A stretch of DNA of 63,193 bases, counting the filler, from Rhabdomonas costata (lineage: Eukaryota), in the NCBI GenBank assembly GCA_019059605.1. It is 49 parts of 49 records of this genome, joined end to end, with 100 filler letters (N's around TTAATTAATTAA, not from the genome) between each part and the next. Parts side by side here need not be neighbours in the genome. Positions count along the whole stretch, not along the records: positions 21,964 to 23,155 come from JAHMHO010024214.1; positions 23,256 to 24,447 come from JAHMHO010024215.1; positions 24,548 to 25,739 come from JAHMHO010024216.1; positions 25,840 to 27,029 come from JAHMHO010024217.1; 45 more parts are not named here. The stretch is one strand, 5' to 3'. Below the pieces are notes generated by a model. The model was not told the DNA's origin. It made no database searches and worked only from the letters and a program-made list of their open reading frames with translations. The position numbers were made by a program, and so were the translations under genes. This document shows, piece by piece, positions 12,743 through 63,193 of this stretch; position 1 is the first letter of the stretch, and each line of letters opens with the position of its first letter.

Positions 12743-12929
12743 GCGCGCCCATTTCACCTATAAATTGCGCTCCAAGCGAATGGAGCAGACGGATTCGTTT
12801 CCTTTTCACACACAAACACNNNNNNNNNNNNNNNNNNNNNNNNNNNNNNNNNNNNNNNNNNNNTTAATTAATTAANNNNNNNNNNNNNNNNNNNNNNNNN
12901 NNNNNNNNNNNNNNNNNNNGGTTTTTTGT

Positions 12930-13790
12930 ACTTTGCTCGGTATTCTCTCGGCACTCATACAACTTATTAATTTTTTTGAATTGTCTTTCAATGTGCAGTT
13001 TTTAAAAATTGGCGGGAAGTGAAGAAACTTATTATACATTTCATCATTATTAGGTACTTGTATATCAACTTCATAAAAACCATATGTAGTTTTCATCAAT
13101 TGATGAATATTTTTATCATTATCAAATTTTTCATATTTCAACATACCTGTTGGCATCTCTTGTAAAACTCCATAAATATAATGCGTTTGCATCAAAGCCT
13201 ACAATTTTTTTATCAGTTTACCTTCGTCACCCAGTGTGTATTTCCCATTTTGTCTTATAACTAGTCTAGATCTTGTCACATCTCTTTCATGATACCGATG
13301 AAAAACAATTGAAGGACCACCTACATTATTTTTTCTCAACAAATAGTCTTTGTTTTTCTCATTAATTAGGTATACCTTGTTGTTGTAAACTTTTATTTCT
13401 TTTGTTACATTTCCTTCATCCTCAACTATTTCAGTATCACATTGGACATTATCATATTTCTGTTCATTTGAGTTCTTGAACATGATTTTTTCTGCTAATC
13501 CTGATAAAGATATAGCGTCTTTGTGCATATCAAAACCTAATTTATAATAGAATTCTTTGTGCTTAGGGATTGCTTGTATTAATGGTTTAACATCTAAATT
13601 ATTATAATATTTAAGATAATCAAACATATTTTTCATATTTTCTTGTTTCCAAACATCCTTTAGTTTATTATATTCCTCTATTCTTGTTTTTGTTTTTTAA
13701 AAATATTTATAATCTGGTAGTTGTTTATCATACAGTTTATTAAAACTTGTCAAGTATCTATAAGGAAAATGAGCTTTTATCATATCTGTT
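12930..13790 (-). pseudogene. Protein-primed family B DNA polymerase (Polinton/Maverick type), disrupted
   Basis: AT-rich and intronless. Motifs in order: KAHFPY, DYLKYYNNLDVKPL, GGPSIVFHRYHE, IVGFDANALYLW (motif A, after a frameshift at ~13200), QEMPTG, GFYEVDI, FPPIFKN. Contains a stop and frameshifts. Confidence 0.85.
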
Positions 13791-14212
13791 TCACGTGACT
13801 TTAGTTATTTATCTAAACTACAACAATAGACAAAAACGGAAAAGAGAGATCAACTGGTCTGTCTTATCTTGAGTGGATTATAAAGCAGGATTGGTTCCGT
13901 CATGTTGATATCATTAAAAAGGTAATTGATGAAGTCAAGAATTTAGATATTGAGCATGATACAGAGCAAGAAGATAAACCTAAAATAGAAAAGAAGAAGA
14001 AGAAAGACCCTAAAACTGTTAAAATCAGTACAACAGAACAAGATAAGACATTACATTTTCAATGATTCATGAAAATAAAAGTGTGAGTTTATTAATATAA
14101 TGGATCAAAACANNNNNNNNNNNNNNNNNNNNNNNNNNNNNNNNNNNNNNNNNNNNTTAATTAATTAANNNNNNNNNNNNNNNNNNNNNNNNNNNNNNNN
14201 NNNNNNNNNNNN

Positions 14213-14954
14213 GGTTATTGTTGGGCCCCTTTTTGCCTTCAAGGGTTGGTGTTTTGAAGAGAAAGAACTGTAGGCTGGCACATGGGGAATTCTTTGAATT
14301 ACTCCGTAAACTCATCCCTACTCTCCTGCTCTCTCACTCTGTCACTTATATATGTACTAGTCATAACCTAGCAGAACTGTAGGGGCATTTCATTTTGTTC
14401 TAGTCCTTTCCACAAAATCACACCACAAAAAGGACAAACGCTTTCAGGTGTACAACCTGCAAGGAATGCAGGCGCGGTTTCTGTACGTCCTGACTAGTAC
14501 ATATATAAGTGACAGAGTGAGAGAGGATGAGAGCCATTGCATAAGAAATTTATAAGGCAGGGGGGGGGTCTGCGTAAGTTCTCATAGTTGTCTAATTACA
14601 GACACACAGTACTACACAGTACTGAGTGGTCCTGGCAGTACTGAGTGGTACTGGTGGTACTGAGTGGCGACTGGTGGCCTCCAAGCTGCTGCGAATGAAC
14701 TGGCCCCGCTCCACCACCACACACTCTGCTGAGCATACCTAAGGGTAGAGCCCAGAGTAATTCATGCTGGCACGAGTGGGCCGTTATGGTTGTGTGTTTA
14801 GAGCCACGCTAGAGGCCAATTTGAGGGCCATTTTGGTTATTGTTGGGCCCCTTTTTGCCTTCAAGGGTTGGTGTTTTGAAGAGAAAGAACTGTAGGCTGG
14901 CACATGGGGAATTCTTTGAATTACTCCGTAAACTCATCCCTACTCTCCTGCTCT
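14213..14954. repeat. ~120-bp perfect direct repeat (14213-14332 / 14835-14954) plus nested 33-bp inverted repeat (14331-14363 / 14491-14523)
   Basis: Identity is directly visible. The first copy begins at the contig edge, consistent with an amplification chimera. Confidence 0.85.
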
Positions 14955-17294
14955 ATGTAAAGGGGATCTCTCGAGTGCTGCTCTTTTCAAAATCGGCCTT
15001 CTATTTCTTTCAGCCTCAACTCGCTTTAAGTGGAACCCGGGCCCTACACTGCGAGCTTGAAGGCAAGCACACACCAAGGTTCCAAACGTCAAACATGCAG
15101 ACTGAGTGCCATGGACCGTCCACCCACCTGCACACATTCACTTGCGATAGCCGTCACAAAAAGACGCTAACGACATGCAAACGCTCGGATTCGCTAGATA
15201 CCCTTACGACACGTCCGCCCTCAGGGTACCGCCGCAGCTAAGTACCAATTACTGTTTACGGAGTGAGTCACCATTGTTTTGGCCGACACGCTAACATCCG
15301 GGGCAGAGCTACAGCCACGCTCATTCGCCCATATCCCTTCCCTAAAATCCCCAAGGACGACAAACATCAACCCAGAAACCAAACACCCACACGAAATTCC
15401 ACACANNNNNNNNNNNNNNNNNNNNNNNNNNNNNNNNNNNNNNNNNNNNTTAATTAATTAANNNNNNNNNNNNNNNNNNNNNNNNNNNNNNNNNNNNNNN
15501 NNNNNACTGCGGTGTGTGGTATTCCAAGTGGATGTGCTTGTGTTTAGGAGTGGCTGTGGGGTTTGGGGGTTTGGCTGCTCCCTGGATATGCGGACCTGGG
15601 AAGAAGAGCCCAAGGTAGCGTTGAGCTGAACACTGCGCTGAAGCACCCATGCGCTTTAGTTCCGATGAGTTGGTTTTTTGTTGCCCTACGTTGACTTTGG
15701 TATGCCTTTGGTTGGATTCCAGAGTACCGGCATTGTTTGGGTGAGACTCGAGGACGACGTGTCGGCGTTCCCTTTCGTTTCGATCGAGTCTTCTGGGCCC
15801 ACTTGTTTTGCTACGGTCGCACTTTGTTGTATTCCGTGGTTCACTGTTGGAACGAATTCTTCCATCGTTTGACAAATCACTTTCGAAGCAGCGGCGGAAG
15901 CACTCATTGTGTATTGTGGCACGTGTTGTAAGTTGTAATAACCGGCAACTGAACACCGGATGCGGTGGTTTCCATTCCAATGAAACTCGCCATAGAATGA
16001 AAAACGGAGGCCCTGGGACTCCGCAGGAATTCCTCTTTTTTTCGGTGTTCAGAGCCTCGTTTATCAGTGTATTGATAGCTCGTGGCAATGCTTCTTTTTC
16101 GGGAAAAGTTTTTCGATCCCTCGGAACCGTGCTGCAGAAAAATAAATGCCGGCGCAGAAAGCCCTGCCCAAAGAGTGGTGGTGGCTTCATCCTCCTCTGG
16201 AGGCCTGGAATCAGCGGCATCGACGGGTTTTTTCCTCTTTCACACATACTTGCTCTCACCGCAGCATACCTCAGCAGCTGCGGTAGGTACAGTCCTGTAA
16301 TACAACACCGGGCTGGATTGGTGTTGATGGTGGTAATGTGGTAATGGTATTAATGGTGGTAAATGTTTGAAGTATTTTTTTTAATTCCCGAGAGCTACTC
16401 GATAGAAAAATTGCAGAGGAGGAAAACTTTGAATGGATTTTCGCATGATTACAAGCTCCAACTTGTGTTTCGGCGCCCCCAGGGAGAGTTGGCGCTCTCT
16501 TCTTAAGATTTCATATTGGTCTCCCCGAAATAAGTATGTCGCACTCATTTGCACCGAAACCCCAGGCAATTTTGCTGTATTTTTTCGGGAGGGGGGGCAC
16601 TGTTGCCTTCAGCCTCCTCCTCCTCGAGACCAGGCATTTTGCTCGGGGGGCTCCGCCCCCCCCCCCACACACACATGTGCATCGCCTCCAAACCCCNNNN
16701 NNNNNNNNNNNNNNNNNNNNNNNNNNNNNNNNNNNNNNNNTTAATTAATTAANNNNNNNNNNNNNNNNNNNNNNNNNNNNNNNNNNNNNNNNNNNNTTTT
16801 GTGTTGCGGGTGTACTTCGGGAGGTTCTGCAGGTGCAGGGAATCTGCCGAGGGCAGCGAGCCAAACATCCCTCCGCTCCCTGCACTGCAGGACATCACCA
16901 AAGGCTGGTCCTCTGTCGCGGGGCCCTCAGGATCCGCCCCAGGGCGCTTGATCCGAAGCGACCGAAAGCGGTCCATTTGGATGCGGAAGAAAGGGGGGTG
17001 GGGTTGGGTGAGGAGGAAGAAAAGGATGCCAAGGAGACGAAGGAACCCGAATAAAGAGGAACGAGAACACCCACACCGGAACGGAAGGGGCTCACCTAGC
17101 CTTCCACTCCAGCGGGTCAAAATTCCACCCCATTACTGGAAAAAACCTGCTTTCTGTGTGCACCTGAAAAAGAGATGAGAAGGGTAAGAATGGAGAATGG
17201 GAGAAGTGAATTGGGTACCCAAAAACCGAAAGGTCCAAGTCCAACGTTGCAATCGCGGGTGCGTGGAGCAATTCAAAGGCTTGGGATGCTACGT

Positions 17295-22860: not shown

Positions 22861-23559
22861 GATATTTTCAAGGGGGCGGGGCGTTAAACGTTTCGAGTCG
22901 AAATTTGTCGAACTTAGTCGAAATTTGTTAAACTTTAAAAAATCGGCATCGGTAAACAGTAAACCCCCTTTCGCAAAAATAACATCATCCACGGAGTTCA
23001 GGAACAGTTAACCAAAGCTCCGTGATGAGAAAATGACTTTATTAGGAACACGACTTTTTACCGTTTGACGCCGATGAACGTTCAACACCATTAAACAGCA
23101 AAAGTCAAGTTTTTGCAGGACCCCACCCCATGACACGTCCCCGTCCCCATCCCACNNNNNNNNNNNNNNNNNNNNNNNNNNNNNNNNNNNNNNNNNNNNT
23201 TAATTAATTAANNNNNNNNNNNNNNNNNNNNNNNNNNNNNNNNNNNNNNNNNNNNGTGGTGTTGTAATTTTTAATGAATCTGTTTTACTTCCTTCATAAA
23301 GATTAATAAATTTTTTGTAATAAAAAACTTCTTGCATTTTTCTTTATCTTTATTTCACTATATATTTCATGTGATTCTAATTTCTGTAGATGGTATTTGT
23401 AAATATTTATCTAAACAACTATACTCTATATCTTTCATAAATTCTCTGTTTTTTAGATATAATTCAACCAGAACAATTATACCAATCATATAACAATGCA
23501 TTATAACTGTCAATCCATGACTAAATATCAATTGAATTTCCTGTTTGATTTCTTCATTT

Positions 23560-24196
23560 TCTTCATAAAATTTTTTATTTTTATTATTTCTATCATCTGG
23601 TATTTTTACTTTAGAATTATCTTTTGCTTCTAATGTTGTATTTGTTGCATTATCCCAGAATATATTTTGTTGATAATTCCTATCATACATCATAAAACCT
23701 ATTAATAGCCATACTTCGAAATGTAGAAGGTGGTGCTGTTAATTTGGAAGGTTCAGGACTTAGAAAATTATTACAATCATTGATATGTTTAAGACTCATT
23801 TTTGTTACGTTAATATTATTTAATCCTCCTCGTTTGCTTTTGATAATGGCATGTTACGATTTGATAATAATATAGATTCTATATCCGTAAGATCTTCATT
23901 TGGTAAAGCTCGACAGTTACATATTGTACTAACACCAACATTATCTACAGTATATTGTATATATCATCAAGAACCAATACATTTTTATTCTTTTTATTCT
24001 TAGTTGGTATGATTGGTCTATTATTAGGATTAATAAATTTTTATAGAAGAGTAAGTGCTAATTACAAAGATACACTTGAAATTGATGCTGCACTAGTCAC
24101 AAACGGTTGTTTAGCATTATTATATTGCATATGTAATTCAAATATAATGTTTGATTTTATTGTTCCCGTATCAATTACATTATTTTTATTAGCCAT
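23560..24196 (-). pseudogene. Frameshifted homolog of a conserved Mimiviridae/Imitervirales hypothetical protein
   Basis: Very AT-rich and intronless. Joining three frames gives GVST..PNEDLTDIESILLSNRNMPLSK/SKRGGLNNINVTKMSLKHINDCNNFLSPEPSKLTAPPSTFRSMAINRFYD/RNYQQNIFWDNATNTTLEAKDN. I recall the pattern D[VI]ESILSNRN..SK..C.xFL.P..S.LT.PP..R...INRFY....Q.NIF.D...NT.LEAKDN from mimivirus-like genomes; not searched. Confidence 0.7.
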
Positions 24197-26188
24197 GTAC
24201 TATTTACGCAAATTATAATGTTATTTTGTTTTCTATTAAAGTATTGGAAAACAAAAAATATAAGTGCTTGGCAAAGTTGGAGAAGAGAGGAGGATGTTTC
24301 TGTTCAAGCCAGAAACGTTTTCAACGACGATAACGTGGATTGAGAGAGGAAGGACGGCAACAATCGCATGAGCCTCGGAGATGCCCACATGAATGAACAC
24401 CGTGGCCGTCCAACGTACTTCACCCAGGTATCATCGCCACCACACACNNNNNNNNNNNNNNNNNNNNNNNNNNNNNNNNNNNNNNNNNNNNTTAATTAAT
24501 TAANNNNNNNNNNNNNNNNNNNNNNNNNNNNNNNNNNNNNNNNNNNNGTGTTGGTGGTTGGTTGACAATGAATTGACAGAGGGTGAGTGTGTGTGCGAGA
24601 GCGTGCGAGGTAGTGAGCGTGTGAGAGAATCGATGTGTCCCGTGCCTCCTCCCCCTTCCCCTCTTTCCTTCTCGTTGGTGGAGCTTGCCTTAGCTGCTCT
24701 ACCGCAAGCGCGCCCCTTGTTTGTTTCTTTGTTGGCTTTTTTGCCCTTGTGCCTTGTGCCGTGCTACTTCTTTCTTCCCCGCTTCCGGTACCGGCCGCCT
24801 GCCTATCTCTCCTTGTCTCTCGCTCTCTCGATTCGCCGCCTTTTGCTGTCCTGCACTCTTCATCTGTCAAATCCTGCTTTCACGTGATTTGTTTGTGTCT
24901 CCCTTCCTGCAAGCTTTTTTCTTGCATTTCGTACTCTCTTTTCATTTTTATGCATTGCTTATCGCCGGGGGCCGTACATATGGGGAGGAAACACGCTCGT
25001 TTGTGAGTTGTACAGTAAGGTGAGAAATGGGGGGAAAGTGGCAGGCCCTGGTGTGTTGTATATTTTCCCGGTGCTCAGTTTGCCCTTTTTTTTTTGCCTT
25101 TCTTCCTGTTTCACCTTGCTGTGCTCTGTGACTTGATGTGTGTGATCGTGACGTTTGTGTATTGTCCTTCTTTTTCCTCTGCTGGTCCACCACTACCCAC
25201 CGCACTTCATGCAGCACCGTCTGCACCACTGGTCGTTGGCCCTCCATTGCTTGCTTCATTCTTGTGGACGACTAAGATAACAAGGGTTAATGTTAGGGTA
25301 CATTTTTGTATTGGGGCGACGCCGAAGCAGGACCGGGGTCTTTTGTATGTACAGTGGGCCTGCCACCTTCTATACGGAAGATCTCCTTGCAAAGAAGTAT
25401 CAGGCTTGGAAAGTTCCACTGTATCTTTTTTTACCCTTGCCACTTCTGCCTGATTTGTTGGGCCCAAGAAGCATTCCAAGAATCACGCGCCGCTCCGATC
25501 CGCATAAGGTATTCTTCGAACGCACTTACGAGGGCAATTTGTGGAGGTTTGCAAGATAAGCATTGCAAACCTGTGCCCGACTCGCTGAGTGGGCGATTTT
25601 CCGGTTTTGCCCTTCATTGCCTCGATTTCTATGGGTTTAGGTGGCCACCAAAGCTGCCACCAGGAAGTGCCGAGAAATGGAATTGTTGAATTGTCTCTCC
25701 TCCAGGTTTTCGCTCTTTTCTTTGTCCACCCCCCCAACCNNNNNNNNNNNNNNNNNNNNNNNNNNNNNNNNNNNNNNNNNNNNTTAATTAATTAANNNNN
25801 NNNNNNNNNNNNNNNNNNNNNNNNNNNNNNNNNNNNNNNTTTTGTGGACCGGTATATACCGTGCCTTGTTTTTTAAAGTCCGAAAGAAAAAAAGAAATGC
25901 GCATAAGACAAGGGGTCAGCCGACGGATCCTCACCCGGTAACTTCAAAAAACAAGGCACGGTATATACCGGTCCACAAAATCTACTGAGTGTTATTGCAG
26001 AACGAAATAGCAACAACTTCCACGCTTGCATTGAGCTGGAAGTGAACTGGAAGTGGACGAGACAAAAATGCGCATTAATAGCGAGACGATAAGGAGCGTC
26101 CCACTGAAAGAATGACTTTTGGTGGATCAGCTTGGGTGTAAACCGAGACTAGCACGAAAGATGCGCGAAAAAGGACAAGGGAAGAAAC

Positions 26189-26983: not shown

Positions 26984-27152
26984 GTGTCTTTTTTTTGGAA
27001 ACAAAAAAAAACCAAATGAGAACGTCATANNNNNNNNNNNNNNNNNNNNNNNNNNNNNNNNNNNNNNNNNNNNTTAATTAATTAANNNNNNNNNNNNNNN
27101 NNNNNNNNNNNNNNNNNNNNNNNNNNNNNGTGGTGGGTGTGTTTGGTTTTGG

Positions 27153-27287
27153 TTTTCAAAACTTTTACCTAAAAAAAGTATGAAATATTGGTTAGACTTA
27201 CAGACTGAACATGACGTGGAGTATGCAACTAAAAGTTATGGTAAGATAAAAATAGAGCCTTTAAATACTAAAAAGCAAGAGGAATAG
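27153..27287 (+). CDS. Bacterial HigA-like antitoxin, C-terminal fragment
   Basis: FSKLLPKKSMKYWLDLQTEHDVEYA resembles the HigA C-terminal S..FWLNLQ..YDL motif; the 5' end is truncated by the contig edge. Confidence 0.55.
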   Translation, partial: FSKLLPKKSMKYWLDLQTEHDVEYATKSYGKIKIEPLNTKKQEE

Positions 27288-27292
27288 TAACA

Positions 27293-27625
27293 ATGGCACA
27301 TATAGATACGTTAAAAGCATATGACGACTTAATATCTACTGGAATAAAAAACGATCAAGCTAGAGCGCATGTTAGAACTTTAGAAGCTAGCTTTGATAAT
27401 GTAGCAACTAAAAAAGATTTAGACCTGCTGGAAGAAAAGTTAGAAACAAAATTAGGAACTAAAATAGATGCTTTGGAAGCAAAAATAGACTCTAGGTTTA
27501 GAGAAATGGACTCAAAGTTCGCATCCATAAAAACTATGGGATGGGCTATGTTTGTAGTTGTTTGTATTCCTATATTACAAAATTTATCTGGTTTGTTTAG
27601 TATTTGGAAACAGCTGGTGAAGTAA
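27293..27625 (+). CDS. Bacterial DUF1640/CCDC90-like coiled-coil protein with C-terminal membrane anchor
   Basis: IDTLKAYDDLISTGIKNDQARA..VATKKDL followed by a coiled coil and a hydrophobic tail; purine-rich SD-like AAGAGGA upstream. Confidence 0.8.
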   Translation: MAHIDTLKAYDDLISTGIKNDQARAHVRTLEASFDNVATKKDLDLLEEKLETKLGTKIDALEAKIDSRFREMDSKFASIKTMGWAMFVVVCIPILQNLSGLFSIWKQLVK

Positions 27626-27637
27626 GAAGTAATCCGA

Positions 27638-27829
27638 ATGAACACTATAAATAAACCAAAAAGCCACGATACTCAAGAATTTGCTGAATTAAAATCAGGC
27701 ATAGAAAACCTCATTAAAATTGATCGGCTTAAGTTCTGGCGTCAAGAAAACAAAAAGATTAGGCAAGAAAAGCTTTACAGAAGATACTTGAAGCTTAAAG
27801 AGCGACGAAAGCAAGGCGGGCGTACATGA
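27638..27829 (+). CDS. Small basic bacterial hypothetical protein (63 aa)
   Basis: Tightly packed co-directional ORF; its stop overlaps the next start (ATGA). Confidence 0.6.
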   Translation: MNTINKPKSHDTQEFAELKSGIENLIKIDRLKFWRQENKKIRQEKLYRRYLKLKERRKQGGRT

Positions 27830-27996
27830 TTTGGAAGAAACCTACTGACCAGAACCAAGCACCAATTACCCACGGCTCTCAAGTTGGTACACAACTAGAT
27901 CTAGATTCAGAAGATGAATTTACTACAGCAGACTGGGTGGAAATTGGACAATATATTGACGAGCTGAAGAAAGAAATTCTTAAGAAACCCAAATAA
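27826..27996 (+). CDS. Small bacterial hypothetical protein (56 aa), missing from the ORF track
   Basis: MIWKKPTDQNQAPITHGSQVGTQLDLDSEDEFTTADWVEIGQYIDELKKEILKKPK*; ATGA overlap with the upstream ORF suggests translational coupling. Confidence 0.6.
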   Translation: MIWKKPTDQNQAPITHGSQVGTQLDLDSEDEFTTADWVEIGQYIDELKKEILKKPK

Positions 27997-28054
27997 TGAT
28001 AAAATGTACTGAAACATTATCTGATTTTATGAAATCTACAAAAAAGGGGCTTTT

Positions 28055-28321
28055 ATGACTACTTTTACTGGCACTGAAGAAGACGTTGTAGTTACTATAA
28101 AAAATCTTGTAGAACTTGAGTATGAAACTAAAGAAGCTTATGACCAAGCTATTAAGCGGTTAGAAAACCTTGATTATAAAGTAAAACTGCGTGAATTTTG
28201 CCAAAATCATGAGCAACACATATTAAACCTGTCTAAGCTGTTGCAAAACCACAATGAACAACCACCTATAGAACCTAGCACTATTAAAAATTGGCTTACT
28301 AAAGGCAAGGTGGTTATTGCT
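28055..28321 (+). CDS. Bacterial ferritin-like (DUF2383/PA2169-type) protein, 3' truncated
   Basis: LVELEYETKEAYDQAIKRL..KLREFCQNHEQHILNL..WLTKGKVVIA fits a ferritin-like four-helix bundle with ExxH-like ligands; SD AAGGGG upstream. Confidence 0.8.
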
Positions 28322-43451: not shown

Positions 43452-45297
43452 GTGTGTAGCGCGGGGGTCCTGTGGGGGTCGTGCAGCGCGTAGAGCAGCG
43501 TAAGGCTGGAATTGATTTGTTTAAACTGTAGCAAGGCCACTCCGTCTCAGCTGCGTATAACAGTGTATGCATGCTGAAATCTTCTGCCGACCGACCGATG
43601 CCACCTTCGGCACTTTTTGGGGGCTAGGATAACCAAGATATTGCATTGCCGGAACTTCAGCGTTGTTCCGGTTGTTCACCACTGGCAGTTGGAAAGTGAT
43701 TTGCCCACCCGCCGGACTTCAATTTTTGAGATTTATATCAGTCTTATCCCCGATCCCGGATCCAAGCTTATTTCACAACAACCCTCAGTAAAGCGTGGCC
43801 TCCTGATCGTATGACAACCACCCNNNNNNNNNNNNNNNNNNNNNNNNNNNNNNNNNNNNNNNNNNNNTTAATTAATTAANNNNNNNNNNNNNNNNNNNNN
43901 NNNNNNNNNNNNNNNNNNNNNNNTGTGTTTTTTTCATTCGGGTTTTCTCTTTTGCTATTTCTCTTCAGCGCAGCTCACTGAGGGAGCCAATATGCGCCCA
44001 CTGTTGTGAAGTAAGAGAAGGAAAACCCGTGCCTGCTCTGTCCGTGTGCTGGGGTTGCGCATCAATGGTGCAGAACTGGGGTGGTCCCTCTACTCGGGGT
44101 GGAAGAAGACTTTTCTTCCGCGGCGGTGTGGGCGGCATTGGTGGAAGATGCGCGGCCGCAGTACTCTCAGCTGGCCTGTTGGGAGGTCTGGCGTGGGGGC
44201 TCCTGAGAACGTCCTCCCGAAGCTTTTCCCTGCCGTTGTGGGCGAAGGATGCTTTGCAAGTGGGGAATAATTCTGGGATCGCCCATGCACACGGCCCTGG
44301 CTCCACCGAAGGTCGGTGCTTCGTATGTGGGGTGTGTCCACGCCTGATGCTGTCCCCTTCACGGAGTCTATGCGCCCCGATGGTCCATTACATAGGGAAA
44401 CAAAAAGGGTGCCTACATCTGCATTGGAAGGTGCCTTCCCTGTGTATTTCGGTTTCGTATTAGCGCCTCATCGGAACCCACTCGCACCGCCTTCCAAATG
44501 TCAGTCCAAATCGAAGAAAATCCTCCTCGCTTCTTGCTACGTATTCCTTTGAATCCCAGGGCGTGATGTGCCCCGCATTTCAACCCCACATCAGCAAACT
44601 GCCATCATCGCTGCTGGCGTTCCCTCCCAGTACATCCGGTGTTGAATGCCTGGGAAAGCATGGCGGCTCCATATCCTCGTTGCCTGGCACATGGAAATAG
44701 CAAAATTTTGAAATAGAGGCTTCTGCTCTGCATCCACTGCGGAGGTCCGAGAGAAAGCTGGTAGTTATAAGAGAGCGGTACCCACCACCATTTTTTTCGG
44801 TGCTGCCGCACCTCAGGACGGGCCCTCCCTCCCTCTCATTGTGGAGGGGCCGCGGACTGCGCGGAGCGGATCGGTCAGCTTCGCGCCAGACTCGAGAGCC
44901 ACGGCGGAGTGCTTCCCTCGGAGTGGGCAGGTGAGCCCGTCGCACACCCCACACGCATAGCTTAGCCTTCCACATTTCCTCTCACCTCGCCCACCTCTGT
45001 GCCTCAGCCGCTCTCATTTCTCAAGCTCTCCCCTCCACACCATACTCGAACGAACGAACGAACGAACGAACGAACGAGCTCTCCGTGATTGAACATTCTC
45101 GATTCCCCTGAGGGNNNNNNNNNNNNNNNNNNNNNNNNNNNNNNNNNNNNNNNNNNNNTTAATTAATTAANNNNNNNNNNNNNNNNNNNNNNNNNNNNNN
45201 NNNNNNNNNNNNNNGGTTGTGGGGGGAAAAGATACGCTTCATCACTAACTGGAAAAAATATATTGTATGTTACACCTTATAATCAACTATGTCTTGA

Positions 45298-45610
45298 CAT
45301 AGTTGATTATAAGGTGTAACATACAATATATTTTTTCCAGTTAGTGATGAAGCGTATCTTTTCCCTCCACGTGCATATTCACTCCATATCATAGTTAGTT
45401 GATGTTTATTTAAAATATCTTTGATTTCATTGTTATGCTTCTGGATCTGCAAAAAAAATGTTCTTCAGATTTAAGATAATATGTACTTACATCTCTTGAA
45501 TTGTATTTCAGATTATCTACGTATTCAAATACTATAGGTTTACCGCGTATTTCCTTTTGATATTCTATTTTTAGTCCTCCTATTTCATTTTTTAATTCAA
45601 AATGTGAGAC
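45298..45610 (-). pseudogene. AT-rich viral-like fragment: possible PolB C-terminus fused to a superfamily 1 helicase (Polinton-like virus type)
   Basis: EIGGLKIE..(frameshift)..LTMIWSEYARGGKRYA..KNILYVTPYNQL gives a degenerate Walker A (AGxGKS/T) and motif Ia (VTPxNxL). Abrupt GC shift at ~45610. Confidence 0.55.
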
Positions 45611-46847
45611 AAACTCACGGCACTGCGGCACAGCCATCACAGAAAGAGGTACGACACAGACATTGATCACTTGACTTGTTCATCAAATTGGAGCAGTTCA
45701 GACCGCAATAGTGAAAAAGGAAAAACGAACTGAGACTGGAACCTTCTTTACCCTGTCCGCTTTGTTGTTATGCTCGGGTTTGTACACCCTCAGGGTGGTT
45801 AGGGCGTTGTTGTCGACCCCACCCTTGCCATGTCCTTAAGCTGCGCAGTCACATGCCTTTCGTAGGAATACTGTGACGCAAGCATTTGGGTGCGATTCGC
45901 TTTTGGGGGCTTAGTATGCGTGTGTGTTTGTGTGTGCGTGCGGTGCTAAATCGGTTCAGTGTTATGGCCCGCTTTGCATGAGCCATTCCATGTCAGAAAT
46001 GGATTCACTGACATGTCTTTCTTTGGAAGCATCAACGAAGGCTAATAACAACGATCATTGTGAAGCTGGAGTCTGCAGCGAGCCCAAAAGGAACTCATGT
46101 GCACGAATACTAACGAAAAGCTGATAAAACCGCAGACACCCACTCACGCTGCTCAGCTGTCGTTCAAGGAGCAAAGACAACGATAAAATAAGCACACCCA
46201 CACAAAATCTGAAACCAAAACAACTCATTTGTGGCAGCAGGAAGGGGAGGAAGGAGCCAGCTCTCTCATAAACGGCACAGGGCAGTCAGGCCCTCCATTA
46301 TGTATGGTATGGAATTCACTCACAGTCACGCAGACCCTCAACTAAAGAAAACGAGTGAAGAACAGAGAGTAGAGTACGCTTCGATGAGATTTTTACCCCA
46401 AACCCCNNNNNNNNNNNNNNNNNNNNNNNNNNNNNNNNNNNNNNNNNNNNTTAATTAATTAANNNNNNNNNNNNNNNNNNNNNNNNNNNNNNNNNNNNNN
46501 NNNNNNGGGTTCGGTTTCGGTTTTTGTTTAGGTTTAGGTTTAGCATTTTTCTTTCCGCTTTGCATCCGACTTCGGGAAAAGTTACTAATCTGACCACATT
46601 TGGTCTACGGTGATATGGATGCGTCCCGGCAACCCGGTTACCGGTTACCGGGGAACCAAAGGTCGGCTTCAATCGACAGCATGTTTACCACCGTATTCTT
46701 GTTTTTAGTCTACACGCTTCTTTAACAGTTTCTTTTTCTTCGCCACGAGGATTTCACGTTTTTGAATGAGACTTAGTGGAAAATCGGTATAACTGCATTG
46801 CGGGGGAGGGGGGGGGCGTGCTGGGATAAATCCCACCCCCAGCACAC

Positions 46848-48820: not shown

Positions 48821-49362
48821 CTGCTCCGCCCCACCCGCAGACCCTTTTGAATTTTCCACCACCAAAAAGAAACATAAAAAAGGGCTAAACTACATAACGA
48901 TAGATACACCCCACAACTCAGAAGAACGTATGTGACGTATTTCAACCTGGTCATCAGACCCTATATAATTGCCATCGTCACCACCCCCNNNNNNNNNNNN
49001 NNNNNNNNNNNNNNNNNNNNNNNNNNNNNNNNTTAATTAATTAANNNNNNNNNNNNNNNNNNNNNNNNNNNNNNNNNNNNNNNNNNNNGGGTTTGGGGGG
49101 GCTCCGTTATCTCCATCGCTGTTGTTTTGAATCTCGCTGGATTCTACGCCAGATTCCGGGGATCCCTCATTTATAGTTTGTCTCAAGAAGCCATGCGGGA
49201 GGGGGAGGGGATGCGATACTTGAGCCATACGTTTTAATTATGTCATCCGTCTGGCCCCTAGGATGCCGCAACTGGTGCACCTTTTGAGTATGCATCCCAA
49301 TATGGATCTCTAACTTCATTGCTGTCCACATACGGGTTCCCATTGCCGCGCTTGCCCCTGCA

Positions 49363-50132
49363 GTCTTCCCGCCCGGCAGAAGGCCCTGCAAGAGCTTTTC
49401 CTCTGCTTCAGTCCGAGAGTCGAGTTTTTCCCCTCTGCTGGGATGCTTTCCTCGGCTCGGCTTGAAGAGTACTCTTTGCTGGTGGTTTTGCCAGAACCCG
49501 ATCCCCTGCTGTGGTCCGAGCTTAAAGATAACTTGTCCCAGGCACTGCTGACATCTTCAGAGCCCCTCAGGGTGTTGGGTTTTGTAGCCGTGAACGAATT
49601 ACAGAAGGCTGAAGAGTTCTTCAACTTTCCCATGTTTCCGAAGCCACCGACGTTTGCGCAAGTCTTGGAATTCCTGGAGAACTTTTCCGAAGCCCCCGCA
49701 CCCGATGGTCCCCACCTGGATGGTTCCAGCAGTGCTGTGGAGCCACGGGTTGCCTCCATGCAACCAACGAAGAGGGTGCTCGTCGCCGACGACATTAAGC
49801 TCAACCAGACCGTGTTCAAGCATATGCTGAAGCAATGGAACATCGAGGCAGATATTGCGGATAACGGGCTAGAGGCGATCTCGATGTGCGAGCAGCATGT
49901 GTACTCGGCGGTGTTCATGGATTGCCACATGCCCTTTTGCACGGGGTTTGAGGCAACCAGAAGGATCCGGCAGATGGATGGTTACCGGAACGTCCCGATC
50001 ATCGCGCTGACGGCCGCTACCTCTGAAGAGGATCGGGACGCTTGTGAGCAGTGCGGGATGTCTCACTTTCTTGCCAAACCGGTGACGTTGGCCTCACTTC
50101 GAGCTGTGCTTGGACATGCCTCGATATTATGA
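49363..50132 (+). CDS. Terminal exon with response-regulator receiver domain (hybrid histidine kinase type)
   Basis: RVLVADDIKLNQTV..ADNGLEA..VFMDCHMPFCTGFEATRRIR..VPIIALTA..GMSHFLAKPV has the acidic pair, phosphoacceptor Asp, Thr and Lys intact. Confidence 0.93.
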
Positions 50133-51815
50133 GTCACTCATGTTCTTGCTGTATAGGGTTCGTTGTACTGGTGATGTGATGTACAGTGGGTTTCCTCGAT
50201 GAGGGGTGCAACCACAGCATATATTCGTCTATCTATCTGCAGGTCTGTGGGTTGCTCCCCTCATCGAGGAAACCCACCCNNNNNNNNNNNNNNNNNNNNN
50301 NNNNNNNNNNNNNNNNNNNNNNNTTAATTAATTAANNNNNNNNNNNNNNNNNNNNNNNNNNNNNNNNNNNNNNNNNNNNGTGGGTGTGGACGAAGTTGCT
50401 GTGTTTGGTGGAATTGATGGCTGGGTGGCGTGAGTCTCACCCTAATCTGTGTGTTCGATATTGAGGTGTAAGAGGTTGCTGATTTGTGGGCTGTGTGTCG
50501 AAATGTTTGTGGATGTTGGTGGACGGTGATGACTTTAGTGTTGTTTCTTGGAGCGCTGGTTTAGGGAGTTGGAGATGGATGTGTGGGAGGTGGTGTATGG
50601 GTGAGTGGTGCTTGCGATTCGGTTGGGAATTGGAGTGTAGGTGTATCGGCCTCAACGACTTCCGTTTCGCGTTTCTAACTTGGGGTGTGGTTTGGTGGTA
50701 GTGGTTGAGTCTTGGCGTTGGGTCTTGTCTTTTGGTGGTTCTTTTTATTCTAGAGTGAGTGTTTGTGTTTTTGTATTTAGGCTTCGTGTAATTGGTCCCC
50801 TCGGTGACATAATTGAACATGGAGAAGGCAAAAAAGGTAAGGTAATAGCTGAACCTGGTCATGAGCAGACGACTGGCAATCACGTACTTGTACTAAACCA
50901 GACGGAAGTATCACCGTTTCTAAGGAGTGGAACAACTAGGCCCATGAAAAAATTATTAACGGATTTAATAGACATATTACCCATGTCCCATGTCGATAGA
51001 TGTGTATGCGTTGGATTTTTACAGTGTTCTTGTAGCTTGGTTGGTCGGAGAGGCATTTTTGGTTCAAGTGGCGGTAATCGTGCGTGTTGGACCTTGTTTT
51101 GTGGGTAGGTGTAGACGCGGTGCTATGTGGTGTGCGCTGGACTTGTTTCTGTGAGAGCGCTTTGTGTGTATCATTGACAGGTGCTGTGTGTGTATCTGTT
51201 GTGTTGGGTCTCTTCCAACCATGCCTTTCCTTCTTACCCATTCTGTTTTCGCTCGTTTGCGCGGATTTTGGGCCTCCATCTGACATTTTCTTGTGATTCC
51301 AACGTAGCACACATCGTTCTAGAGGAGTATATCACGCTGTGATAGGCTGCCGGTTTGTGAAGGAGGAAGGTATGCTGGGCCTGTTCGCCCCCATCCTTCC
51401 ACCCTACCCCCTCCTTTCAATCCCCTTTGGAGATTCAAAAAGTACGTTGAGTTATCCACACCTCCGGCTGTCTGTGGGTTCTTTTTACCCCATTTTGACA
51501 TTCTGGTGCACCGAATTTGCCACAAGATTGCGTCCTTGCTACCCGCAAAATGACGCATTTCTTCTTTCTTGNNNNNNNNNNNNNNNNNNNNNNNNNNNNN
51601 NNNNNNNNNNNNNNNTTAATTAATTAANNNNNNNNNNNNNNNNNNNNNNNNNNNNNNNNNNNNNNNNNNNNGGTTTGTGTGGAAGGGCGGTTTGCTGTTT
51701 GCCGAGGTTTGCGGTGTGCAGAGGCCCTTTTGGAGCCTCTCTTTTGTGCGTGGGGTAGGGGTTAGGGTTAGGGGGGCGTTTCTATGTGTGGTGGTGGTGG
51801 TGGTGGTGGCTGCAG

Positions 51816-62002: not shown

Positions 62003-63053
62003 TGTGGTGGGTGTGTGTGGTGTGTTGTGTAGGAGCCAGTGTATTGGAGTTTAACCTTGTGGGGAATGAATTGCTATTGGCCGGTTGATGAAGAGAAACT
62101 GAATGCAACGGAGGCTCAAGACGGTTGTTTCCTGCATGGCGGGATTCCAGGTACTCTCCCCAGCGGCTCGTAGAAGGGAAAGTGGGTGCAGCGGGGGTAT
62201 CTCCCACTGCAAGGGAGGGAGTAGGGCAACGTAACTTTCCAAAGCTAGCACTGGCTGGTGACATATTTGAGGGCGTGTTCGTGAATGAGCATGAAGCTGA
62301 GGGCTCTCGGGAGAGACCAGCGTCGGAGACCTGAAGGTTAAAAGTGGAGTCTTCCGCGGCCATTGGAATGCCTACCACTCCTTCAGGCGAAGCCTTAGGC
62401 CACCGGGTCTCTAATGCACGCTGAACCTCTGGGCGTCTCAGAATGCTGCGGCTGAGAGCATCCGTGGGACTGCAGGGTGACTGCAAGCGCCGTGCAGTGT
62501 CAGCTCCACCATGACCGCATGGTATACCCAGGATCGGCTTCTCTGTGCCTTTAACTGAAGAGCAGCCTTGTGAGTCACTTGCACCTTGACCATGCGTAAA
62601 AGCGTGGGGTCTCAAGGAACAAGAAGAAGCGGCATCGACCGGCACTGGCGACTTGATGAGAGTGGGGAACAGGGATGGTGGACTGCGAGGGCTCATCGGA
62701 AAGCTTTTGTCCGCTCCTTTGTTTTTCTTATGTACAGTGGGGACGCCCTGGACAGATGAGTACAGCGCGGGGGCCTCCGCGTTTAGCAGGTTGTGATCAG
62801 TGACACCGTTCCCGCTCGCATTGGACAGTCCTGGTGTACCGTGGTGCTCGCTTTCTCTTCTCGCACCGCATGTCCATGACAAGAGAAGCAGGTCACAAAC
62901 ACGGAGCATCACAGTGCGGAGTGCAACGACCAAAAGCATTGCAGTGAGGAGCTGCAACGCAAAGCTCCAGTGACGTCCAGATGAAAGGTAGTCCTCCACC
63001 AGGATGCTTGACAGAGCGCAACACAGCGCACCCAGCAGCAGCCGAGATGCCAT
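62003..63053 (-). CDS. Hypothetical protein with N-terminal hydrophobic segments and a long Ser/Pro-rich tail (3' truncated)
   Basis: Uninterrupted ~350-codon frame from ATG 63053; longest ORF in the window; no family recognised. Confidence 0.65.
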
Positions 63054-63193
63054 TCTTGCGCGGTGAGGGCAGGAGGGCCAAAGTGCGCCCAGAGCCAGGG
63101 ACGACCGCAACCCGCAAGCTAGCAGCTCTGCAAACGGCTGAGAAACAATGGACGTAGGCAGTCCTTCCCCAACACCCCAAACACACCCACCAC

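What the first reader, a model, noticed from the sequence alone, without database searches (positions are those of the whole stretch)
23256..24447. Fossil giant-virus (Mimiviridae-like) gene joined to host-like DNA
Seen: ~1 kb of very AT-rich DNA whose minus strand, across at least two frameshifts and several stops, spells DLTDIESILLSNRN..CNNFLSPEPSKLTAPPSTFRSMAINRFYD..QQNIFWDNATNTTLEAKDN. At ~24265 it switches abruptly to ~50% GC. The ORF track shows only the last piece. Recalled, not searched: this motif series belongs to a conserved hypothetical protein of Mimiviridae/Klosneuvirinae-like viruses. Inference: an endogenised, decaying Nucleocytoviricota segment that records a giant-virus host relationship for this protist lineage.
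Basis: partly seen in the sequence, partly recalled or inferred. Interest (0 to 1): 0.75.

Follow-up and report, generated by a model that had tools for sequence, protein, structure and literature searches.

The report
Broken giant-virus gene, host junction unproven

Summary
The finding is one whole contig, 23256-24447, one of 49 contigs of about 1.19 kb joined by spacers. Its minus strand carries three colinear pieces, 23945-23850, 23841-23686 and 23684-23586. They match residues about 62-182 of a roughly 200-aa protein family. The only named member is Indivirus_1_24 (Klosneuvirinae). The family lies on giant-virus metagenome contigs that carry NCLDV capsid genes. The frame moves by one base at 23833-23843 and back at 23682-23689. 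The family's first 55-60 residues, its start codon and its C-terminal cysteines are absent. GC jumps from 24% to 51% at 24264, and the last 173 bases resemble the bulk contigs in oligonucleotide usage.

The "decaying endogenous fossil" reading is not shown. The contig ends are degenerate whole-genome-amplification primer remains. All 15 covered invariant family columns are kept. Two open frames, 123 and 103 codons, are longer than chance gives. The second is followed by a strong AT-rich hairpin, a Mimiviridae-type transcript end, whose foot sits at the GC switch. Read-level checks were not available.

I rate co-amplified virus DNA in a chimeric amplicon at about 0.47 and a recent true integration at about 0.37. 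Interest is modest, because both kinds are already known.

The parts
23256..23265 (+). G/T-only 10-mer at the contig start. It is the remains of the degenerate part (K10) of the amplification primer, not genome sequence.
   Evidence: 36 of 49 contigs start with a G/T-only run of 7 or more, against an internal 7-mer frequency of 2.4%. The primer ...KKKKKKKKKKNN is quoted in PMC10781638 (passage).
23370..23585 (-). Open C-terminal tail of about 72 codons that matches no family member and contains a hydrophobic stretch. The stop codon is at 23367-23369. The family's C-terminal Cys pair is not found.
   Evidence: ORF 23367-23738. The HMM match ends at family position about 182-192. C194 and C202 are not covered.
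23586..23684 (-). Piece C, DRNYQQNIFWDNATNTTLEAKDNSKVKIP..., corresponding to family positions about 146-182.
   Evidence: tblastn and HMM alignments.
23682..23689 (-). Second frame change. One base too many relative to the family's spacing, and not in a homopolymer.
   Evidence: Piece B ends at RFYDV (23686) and piece C starts at D (23684) in the other frame.
23686..23841 (-). Piece B, KSKRGGLNNINVTKM...RSMAINRFYDV, corresponding to family positions 94-145, in a different frame from pieces A and C.
   Evidence: 52% identity over 52 aa to Indivirus_1_24. 61.3 bits against the 122-protein HMM.
23833..23843 (-). First frame change. One base too few relative to the family's spacing, inside aaagcaaa.
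   Evidence: The conserved S-K is read in frame A and the following K-R-G-G in frame B.
23850..23945 (-). Piece A, DNVGVSTICNCRALPNEDLTDIESILLSNRNM, corresponding to family positions about 60-90. There is no start codon upstream in this frame.
23931..23940 (+). C/A-only 10-mer AACACCAACA, which forms the VGV codons on the minus strand. The homology to the family stops just beyond it, and the expected N-terminal 55-60 residues are absent.
   Evidence: It is one of only two internal G/T-only or C/A-only runs of 10 or more in the contig. No HMM match to positions 1-61 in any frame, with filters off.
23946..24215 (+). AT-rich stretch with no detectable relative. It carries a 103-codon open frame on the plus strand (23907-24218). 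Read from the first ATG at 24009 it gives a 69-aa hydrophobic protein.
   Evidence: In resamples, P(second-longest ORF >= 103 codons) = 0.0005. No hits.
24218..24261 (+). AT-rich hairpin starting at the stop codon of the plus-strand ORF. Its 3' arm holds the C/A-only run 24248-24258, and its foot lies at the GC switch.
   Evidence: -12 kcal/mol, z = -5.26, and 0 of 200 shuffles fold as well. Inverted repeat I2. Mimiviridae transcripts end at such palindromes (PMC4402537 abstract).
24264..24436 (.). 173 bases of 51% GC DNA that resemble the bulk (host-like) contigs in oligonucleotide usage.
   Evidence: Change point. The Markov score of 0.031 is the 48th percentile of 264 held-out host pieces, and 1 of 500 shuffles reach it. 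The two AT-rich parts score below 98.9-100% of host pieces.
24437..24447 (+). C/A-only 11-mer at the contig end, the complement of the primer's degenerate part.
   Evidence: 36 of 49 contigs end this way.

Best explanation
The AT-rich kilobase is genuine giant-virus DNA of an Imitervirales-like virus. It holds the central two thirds of the long paralogue of an unnamed, conserved, roughly 200-aa NCLDV protein. It also holds a second small gene with a Mimiviridae-type terminator hairpin. The DNA most likely came from virus DNA present with the sampled cell or cells, through infection, ingested particles or attached particles. It was then copied by degenerate-primer whole-genome amplification. 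On this reading, the link to 173 bases of host-like DNA at 24264 arose during amplification or assembly. The break at about 23940 that removes the gene's N-terminus probably arose the same way. The two one-base frame changes are either copying or sequencing errors, or belong to a broken paralogue in the virus itself. Shown: viral homology, the frame changes, the missing N-terminus, the primer ends and the host-like flank. Inferred: that the joins are artificial.
For: Amplification signature. 36 of 49 contigs start with a G/T-only run, 36 of 49 end with a C/A-only run, and 27 have both. This matches the primer quoted, so the contig is an amplification product bounded by primer sites. The sample is mixed: contig 27130-28321 is bacterial-like (DUF2383).

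The viral part shows no long neutral decay. 15 of 15 covered invariant columns and 19 of 29 near-invariant columns are kept, 34 of 44 in total, against a minimum of 29 among real members. There is no in-frame stop in the matched pieces. ORFs of 123 and 103 codons are both beyond chance (P = 0.006 and 0.0005). The terminator-type hairpin is intact. GC is still 24%, like the viral loci at 21-36%.

Both discontinuities lie next to the only two internal C/A-only runs of 10 or more in the contig. My rough, after-the-fact estimate puts the chance of this at about 1e-3.

Another AT-rich contig, 12920-14112, also seems to change frame at an A7 run. The one GC-normal coding stretch I could check stays in one frame for 258 aa. 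This fits indel errors concentrated in AT-rich DNA.
Against: Four separate anomalies in one 1.2-kb product (two joins and two indels) are many for artefacts; a single hypothesis, decay in a host genome, covers all four. I found no published chimera rate for this amplification type: PMC4527218 (passages) measures chimeras for MDA only. I cannot give a clean mechanism that leaves a join at a primer-like run without the universal adapter. The run at 24248-24258 is one arm of a natural hairpin, so it is not a primer scar. The second frame change is not in a homopolymer. The frame reading of contig 12920-14112 rests on a motif I recognised by eye and on a feature-based hit only, with no Pfam support.
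Confidence: 0.47

Rival explanations
1. True endogenous viral fragment. A piece of Imitervirales-like DNA integrated into the nuclear genome of this eukaryote. It was rearranged, losing the gene's N-terminus, and picked up two frameshifts. The integration would be recent, because composition and conserved residues are untouched.
For: Viral and host-like DNA lie in one continuous contig, and the flank scores as typical bulk DNA. The gene lacks its start codon, the first 55-60 residues and the C-terminal Cys pair, and it changes frame twice. The neighbours conserved in viral genomes were not detected: the ubiquitin-conjugating enzyme expected upstream and the protein of about 1000 aa expected downstream. 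One hypothesis explains all the anomalies. Eroded giant-virus insertions are known in protists (PMC12455990 abstract).
Against: The only link to host DNA is an amplification product, and no read-level check was possible. There is no sign of substitutional decay, no stops in about 200 codons, two long ORFs and an intact hairpin. If integrated, it is very young and not a 'fossil'. The flanks are too short (about 100 and 317 bases) to judge synteny.
Confidence: 0.37
2. The AT-rich block is natural as it stands inside a virus genome: a truncated, frameshifted extra paralogue lying next to a small gene. Only the join to host-like DNA at 24264 needs explaining, either as a chimera or as an integration.
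For: The family already has two paralogues per genome in 29 of 33 loci, so extra decayed copies are plausible. Both AT-rich pieces have the same composition. The small ORF with its hairpin looks like an intact viral gene.
Against: None of the 33 loci showed a third, truncated copy. No relative of the small ORF was found in viral collections.
Confidence: 0.1
3. The AT-rich block is not viral. It is a cellular or organellar gene of some AT-rich contaminant, or it reads as open under a different genetic code.
For: The sample is mixed. AT-rich DNA opens many frames under the ciliate code.
Against: The nearest ESM Atlas clusters are 100% viral with Nucleocytoviricota commonest. The family sits on contigs with NCLDV capsid genes in a conserved viral gene cluster. 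Codes 4 and 6 do not remove the frame changes. No tRNA or Rfam hit was found.
Confidence: 0.04

Closest known systems
Hypothetical protein Indivirus_1_24 (ARF09401.1, 204 aa) of Indivirus ILV1 (Imitervirales, Mimiviridae, Klosneuvirinae), with its unnamed family of about 200-aa proteins on giant-virus metagenome contigs
   Same: The central block is colinear. There is 52% identity over 52 aa in piece B and 31-40% over pieces A and C. All 15 covered invariant columns are kept. The DNA has the same low GC.
   Different: The window copy lacks positions 1 to about 60, the start codon and the C-terminal Cys pair. It changes frame twice and has an unrelated 72-codon tail. Its best relative is only 45% identical. 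The family has no Pfam model and no usable structure model (pLDDT 43.8), so its function is unknown. It lies in a conserved cluster with a P9-type minor capsid protein, a TBP, a resolvase and an E2 enzyme.
Giant endogenous viral elements (GEVEs) and smaller NCLDV-derived insertions in protist genomes, for example in Euglena gracilis (PMC12455990, abstract seen)
   Same: A viral gene fragment with disabling changes lies next to host-like DNA.
   Different: Published cases rest on long assemblies or many genes. Here there is one amplified 1.2-kb contig, one gene fragment, no substitutional erosion and no independent support for the junction.
Giant-virus sequences co-recovered with single amplified protist cells (PMC12644861, abstract seen)
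   Same: This is a low-input, amplified, mixed sample that holds bacterial-like and virus-like AT-rich contigs beside the eukaryote's own DNA.
   Different: Co-recovered virus contigs are normally purely viral with intact genes. This one is joined to host-like DNA and is out of frame twice.
Mimiviridae 'hairpin rule' for transcript 3' ends (PMC4402537, abstract seen)
   Same: A strong AT-rich palindrome starts at the stop codon of the 103-codon ORF.
   Different: No transcript data were available here. The family gene's own downstream region has no significant hairpin (z = 0.13).

Membership tests
Unnamed NCLDV family of about 200 aa (Indivirus_1_24-like, long paralogue) | Significant sequence match to family members and to the family profile | tested here: met
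   phmmer best E 2.6e-12 against 1.84 billion proteins. HMM scores of 61.3 and 51.3 bits in two frames. The long-paralogue HMM matches and the short-paralogue HMM does not.
Unnamed NCLDV family of about 200 aa (Indivirus_1_24-like, long paralogue) | Conserved N-terminal block (Y18 D19 D25 ... C46 C49 L50 S51 G54 P55 R56) | tested here: not met
   No match to profile positions 1-61 in any of six frames with filters off. 7 invariant and 13 near-invariant N-terminal columns are not covered.
Unnamed NCLDV family of about 200 aa (Indivirus_1_24-like, long paralogue) | Central-block invariant residues | tested here: met
   15 of 15 covered invariant columns and 19 of 29 near-invariant columns are kept.
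Unnamed NCLDV family of about 200 aa (Indivirus_1_24-like, long paralogue) | One uninterrupted reading frame of about 200 codons with the C-terminal Cys pair | tested here: not met
   Two frame changes. C194 and C202 are not covered.
Unnamed NCLDV family of about 200 aa (Indivirus_1_24-like, long paralogue) | Conserved neighbours: E2 enzyme upstream and a protein of about 1000 aa downstream | tested here: inconclusive
   Only the gene itself matched the 33 loci by tblastx. The 23-codon downstream ORF does not resemble the neighbours' N-termini. The flanks are only about 317 and 100 bases.
Endogenous viral element | Sequence of viral origin | tested here: met
Endogenous viral element | Physical continuity with host chromosome, confirmed independently of amplification and assembly | not testable with these tools
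Endogenous viral element | Flank is host DNA | tested here: met
   By composition only: the Markov score is at the 48th percentile of host pieces, and 1 of 500 shuffles reach it. The flank is 173 bases and no homologue was sought.
Endogenous viral element | Erosion (stops, substitutions at conserved sites, drift of composition toward the host) | tested here: inconclusive
   There are two frame changes and a truncation, but no in-frame stops, all invariants are kept, GC is 24% and long ORFs remain.
Amplification or assembly chimera | The molecule is a product of degenerate-primer amplification | tested here: met
   Primer-type runs at both ends of this contig and of 27 of 49 contigs. Primer sequence quoted.
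Amplification or assembly chimera | The junction is absent from unamplified DNA | not testable with these tools

The most novel reading that the evidence does not exclude
A very recent integration of Imitervirales-like DNA into the nuclear genome of this unidentified eukaryote, caught at the first steps of inactivation: one rearrangement and two frameshifts, with no substitutional decay yet. It would record a direct giant-virus-host link. The AT-rich contig 12920-14112, with a protein-primed-polymerase-like gene, might be an integrated polinton- or virophage-like companion.
Probability: 0.35. Interest if true: 0.45.

Novelty: new member of a known kind. Interest (0 to 1): 0.3.

Why it matters
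If the junction is real, it ties a Klosneuvirinae-like giant virus to a particular eukaryotic host. Such links are hard to obtain for uncultured protists, and this one would show an insertion at the very start of its decay. If the junction is an artefact, the contig still shows that giant-virus DNA accompanied the sampled cell. It is also a cautionary case: in assemblies made from degenerate-primer amplified DNA, short contigs that join viral and host DNA cannot be read as integrations without read-level or PCR support. In passing, the work defines a widespread, unnamed NCLDV gene family with two paralogues flanking an E2 gene in a conserved cluster.

Tried and rejected
- **Alternative genetic codes.** Codes 6 and 4 do not remove the frame changes. 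Under code 6 everything opens, as expected for AT-rich DNA.
- **Pfam.** On the three pieces and the plus-strand ORF: no family. On six family members: none.
- **Single-piece scans.** Piece C against IMG/VR, the plus ORF and the ORF of contig 12920, and piece C against metagenome contigs: no close relative. Word-based search for longer relatives of piece C: none.
- **RNA genes.** Rfam and tRNA scans of the window: none.
- **Structure.** AlphaFold2 on a 42-sequence alignment of the family gave mean pLDDT 43.8. That is too poor, so no fold search was run.
- **NCLDV records.** The plus ORF and an ORF of contig 45215 gave no match in three NCLDV records.
- **Downstream synteny.** No resemblance.
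- **Promoter motif.** The Mimivirus early-promoter octamer, recalled from memory, is not in the contig, and its 3 window hits are at chance level.
- **Host identity.** A receiver-domain ORF gave mostly bacterial hybrid kinases at 33-49% identity and one unnamed EukProt protein. This was not informative.
- **Indel errors in the bacterial-like contig.** The genome contigs machine gave no answer three times. NCBIfam found nothing.
- **Primer-scar idea.** I considered and dropped the idea that the C/A run at 24248-24258 is a primer scar. It pairs with a G/T run 15 nt upstream in a natural hairpin.
Full report
**What the window is.**
The 63,193-base window is not one stretch of genome. It is 49 contigs of 1179-1197 bases joined by runs of N around TTAATTAATTAA. 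The finding's coordinates, 23256-24447, are exactly one of these contigs, with GC 0.288.

36 of 49 contigs begin with a G/T-only run of at least 7 bases. 36 of 49 end with a C/A-only run of at least 7, and 27 have both. The usual run length is 10, while G/T-only 7-mers occur at 2.4% of internal positions. Some contig ends still carry a near-copy of an adapter.

A passage in PMC10781638 gives the universal single-cell amplification primer as that adapter followed by KKKKKKKKKKNN. PMC4833346 calls the same adapter WGA-specific. The assembly therefore comes from DNA amplified with degenerate primers. In the target contig, bases 23256-23265 and 24437-24447 are primer remains.

The sample is mixed. 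Contig 27130-28321 has a DUF2383 match typical of bacteria. No whole genome is held for the window.

**The observation.**
- ORF 23820-23963
- ORF 23683-23853, in another frame
- ORF 23367-23738, 123 codons, in the frame of the first

I translated 23367-23963 with stops as X and searched 1.84 billion representative proteins. Six proteins scored E<=0.001, the best at 2.6e-12 with 45% identity.

One of the six is hypothetical protein Indivirus_1_24 of Indivirus ILV1. That virus belongs to Imitervirales, Mimiviridae, Klosneuvirinae. The other five are unnamed metagenome proteins.

tblastn of the six proteins against the window's contigs shows the three pieces in colinear order. Five of the six gave a separate alignment to 23841-23686 in the second frame. 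For Indivirus_1_24 this was 52% identity over 52 residues. No other contig matched at E<0.01.

The frame moves by one base inside 23833-23843 and back inside 23682-23689. The matched pieces contain no in-frame stop.

The maximum-likelihood GC change point is 24264 (support 24260-24279), with GC 0.243 on the left and 0.509 on the right.

**The family.**
- A profile of the six proteins finds 512 proteins at E<=0.001 among 3623 candidates.
- It finds 33 loci in IMG/VR. 9 of these have GVMAG names, the contigs reach 481,715 bases, and locus GC is 0.21-0.36.
- Of five records asked for, three were held. All three carry 5-7 matches to the NCLDV capsid family above the curated cut-off.
- The nearest ESM Atlas clusters are 100% viral, with Nucleocytoviricota commonest.
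- There is no Pfam family.
- In the 33 loci the gene sits in a conserved cluster. The order is polynucleotide kinase, a serpin-like protein, two unknown proteins, a short paralogue of about 130 aa, a ubiquitin-conjugating enzyme, the long paralogue of about 200 aa, and a protein of about 1000 aa. Then follow a TBP-like protein, a resolvase, and nearby a P9-type minor capsid protein.
- The window copy matches the long-paralogue profile (positions 54-192 of 202) and not the short one.
- An AlphaFold2 model of the family was too poor to use (pLDDT 43.8). Its function stays unknown. The poor model and the virion-gene neighbourhood fit an extended structural protein, but that is only a guess.

**What is missing or broken.**
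With filters off, no frame matches profile positions 1-61. The N-terminal block, which is the part shared even with the short paralogue, is therefore absent. There is no start codon upstream in frame. The C-terminal Cys pair is absent too. In its place is an unrelated open tail of about 72 codons.

**What is not decayed.**
- All 15 covered invariant columns and 19 of 29 near-invariant columns are kept. The total of 34 of 44 lies inside the range of 42 real members, whose minimum is 29 and median 43.5.
- In 2000 first-order Markov resamples of the AT-rich 993 bases, the longest ORF averages 66 codons. P(longest >= 123) is 0.006 and P(second longest >= 103) is 0.0005.
- Both the 123-codon minus-strand ORF and the 103-codon plus-strand ORF (23907-24218; 69 aa from the first ATG at 24009) therefore look like coding sequence that is, or recently was, maintained.
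- The plus-strand ORF's stop codon is followed at once by a hairpin at 24218-24261: -12 kcal/mol, z = -5.26, and 0 of 200 shuffles fold as well.
- Mimiviridae transcripts end at such palindromes (PMC4402537 abstract). This suggests that the unmatched 317 bases are also giant-virus DNA.
- The hairpin's foot coincides with the GC switch.

**The flank.**
A third-order Markov model trained on 44 bulk contigs scores the last 173 bases at 0.031. That is the 48th percentile of 264 held-out bulk pieces, and 1 of 500 of its own shuffles reach it. The two AT-rich parts score below 98.9% and 100% of bulk pieces. 'Host-like' is therefore fair, on composition alone.

**Integration or artefact.**

*For integration.* One hypothesis explains the junction, the truncation and the two frame changes together. 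Such insertions are known in protists (PMC12455990 abstract).

*For an artefact.*
- The only physical link is an amplification product.
- The viral DNA shows no substitutional decay or compositional drift.
- The two discontinuities lie beside the only two internal C/A-only runs of 10 or more in the contig, at 23931-23940 and 24248-24258. I estimate roughly, and after the fact, that this has a chance of about 1e-3.

The second run, however, is an arm of the natural hairpin. I also cannot give a clean mechanism for an adapter-free join, so I weigh this point only moderately.

*Indel errors.* Another AT-rich contig, 12920-14112, appears to change frame at an A7 run. It is protein-primed-polymerase-like by ESM Atlas features at 0.96, with no Pfam support. 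A polymerase-like motif that I recognised by eye lies in the other frame. A GC-normal coding stretch keeps one frame over 258 residues. This hints at indel errors in AT-rich DNA, but the argument is circular if that contig is itself a decayed element.

*Chimera rates.* The only paper I read on this (PMC4527218, passages) measures chimeras for MDA, not for this amplification type.

**Verdict.**
The observation and the viral origin are confirmed. 'Endogenised, decaying fossil' is not shown.

My estimates:
- about 0.47 for co-amplified virus DNA in a chimeric product
- about 0.37 for a very recent true integration
- about 0.10 for a naturally broken paralogue inside a virus genome, with the host join still unexplained
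- about 0.04 for a non-viral source

In any of the viral cases it is a new, divergent member of known kinds, and interest is modest.

Noticed in passing
whole window; contig ends listed: The window is 49 contigs of about 1.19 kb, each bounded by degenerate amplification-primer remains (G/T-only starts, C/A-only ends). A few still carry near-copies of the universal adapter, for example the starts of 1-1192, 27130-28321 and 62003-63193. Any feature that spans two compositions within one contig needs read-level support.
   Followed up: yes
12920-14112, minus strand: A fully AT-rich contig (GC 0.28) with ORFs of 165 and 108 codons in one frame, separated by a stop next to an A7 run. A short polymerase-like motif, recognised by eye, lies in another frame between them. 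The nearest ESM Atlas clusters carry DNA_pol_B_2 in 13-22% of members and are eukaryotic (score 0.96). There is no Pfam hit and no IMG/VR relative. It may be a polinton- or virophage-like element with frame errors or decay.
   Followed up: partly
45215-46406: A second composite contig: about 380 AT-rich bases (GC 0.2-0.35), then GC-normal DNA from about 45600. Two minus-strand ORFs overlap at a T8 run near 45450. No family or NCLDV match was found, and there is no primer-like run at the switch.
   Followed up: partly
27130-28321: A bacterial-like contig (GC 0.34) with five small plus-strand ORFs, one of which matches DUF2383 (E 9.9e-08). It shows that non-host DNA is present in the assembly.
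   Followed up: partly
49089-50279, plus-strand ORF 49314-50132: A receiver domain of a hybrid histidine kinase. It is 42% identical over 258 residues, in a single frame, to an unnamed EukProt protein. All other hits are bacterial kinases.
   Followed up: partly
L001-L033 (IMG/VR loci): The family has two paralogues, of about 130 and 200 aa, that share an N-terminal block. They flank a ubiquitin-conjugating enzyme gene in a cluster conserved in most of the 33 loci, alongside kinase, serpin-like, TBP-like, resolvase and P9 minor-capsid genes. Neither paralogue has a Pfam family.
   Followed up: partly
all contigs; for example 14243 and 14865: Internal G/T-only or C/A-only runs of 10 or more occur at 4.1 per kb (233 in 56.9 kb), more than I would expect for random 50% GC sequence. 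One 14-base G/T string occurs twice in contig 14213-15405. It is not resolved whether this reflects host microsatellites, preferred priming sites or concatenated amplicons.
   Followed up: no
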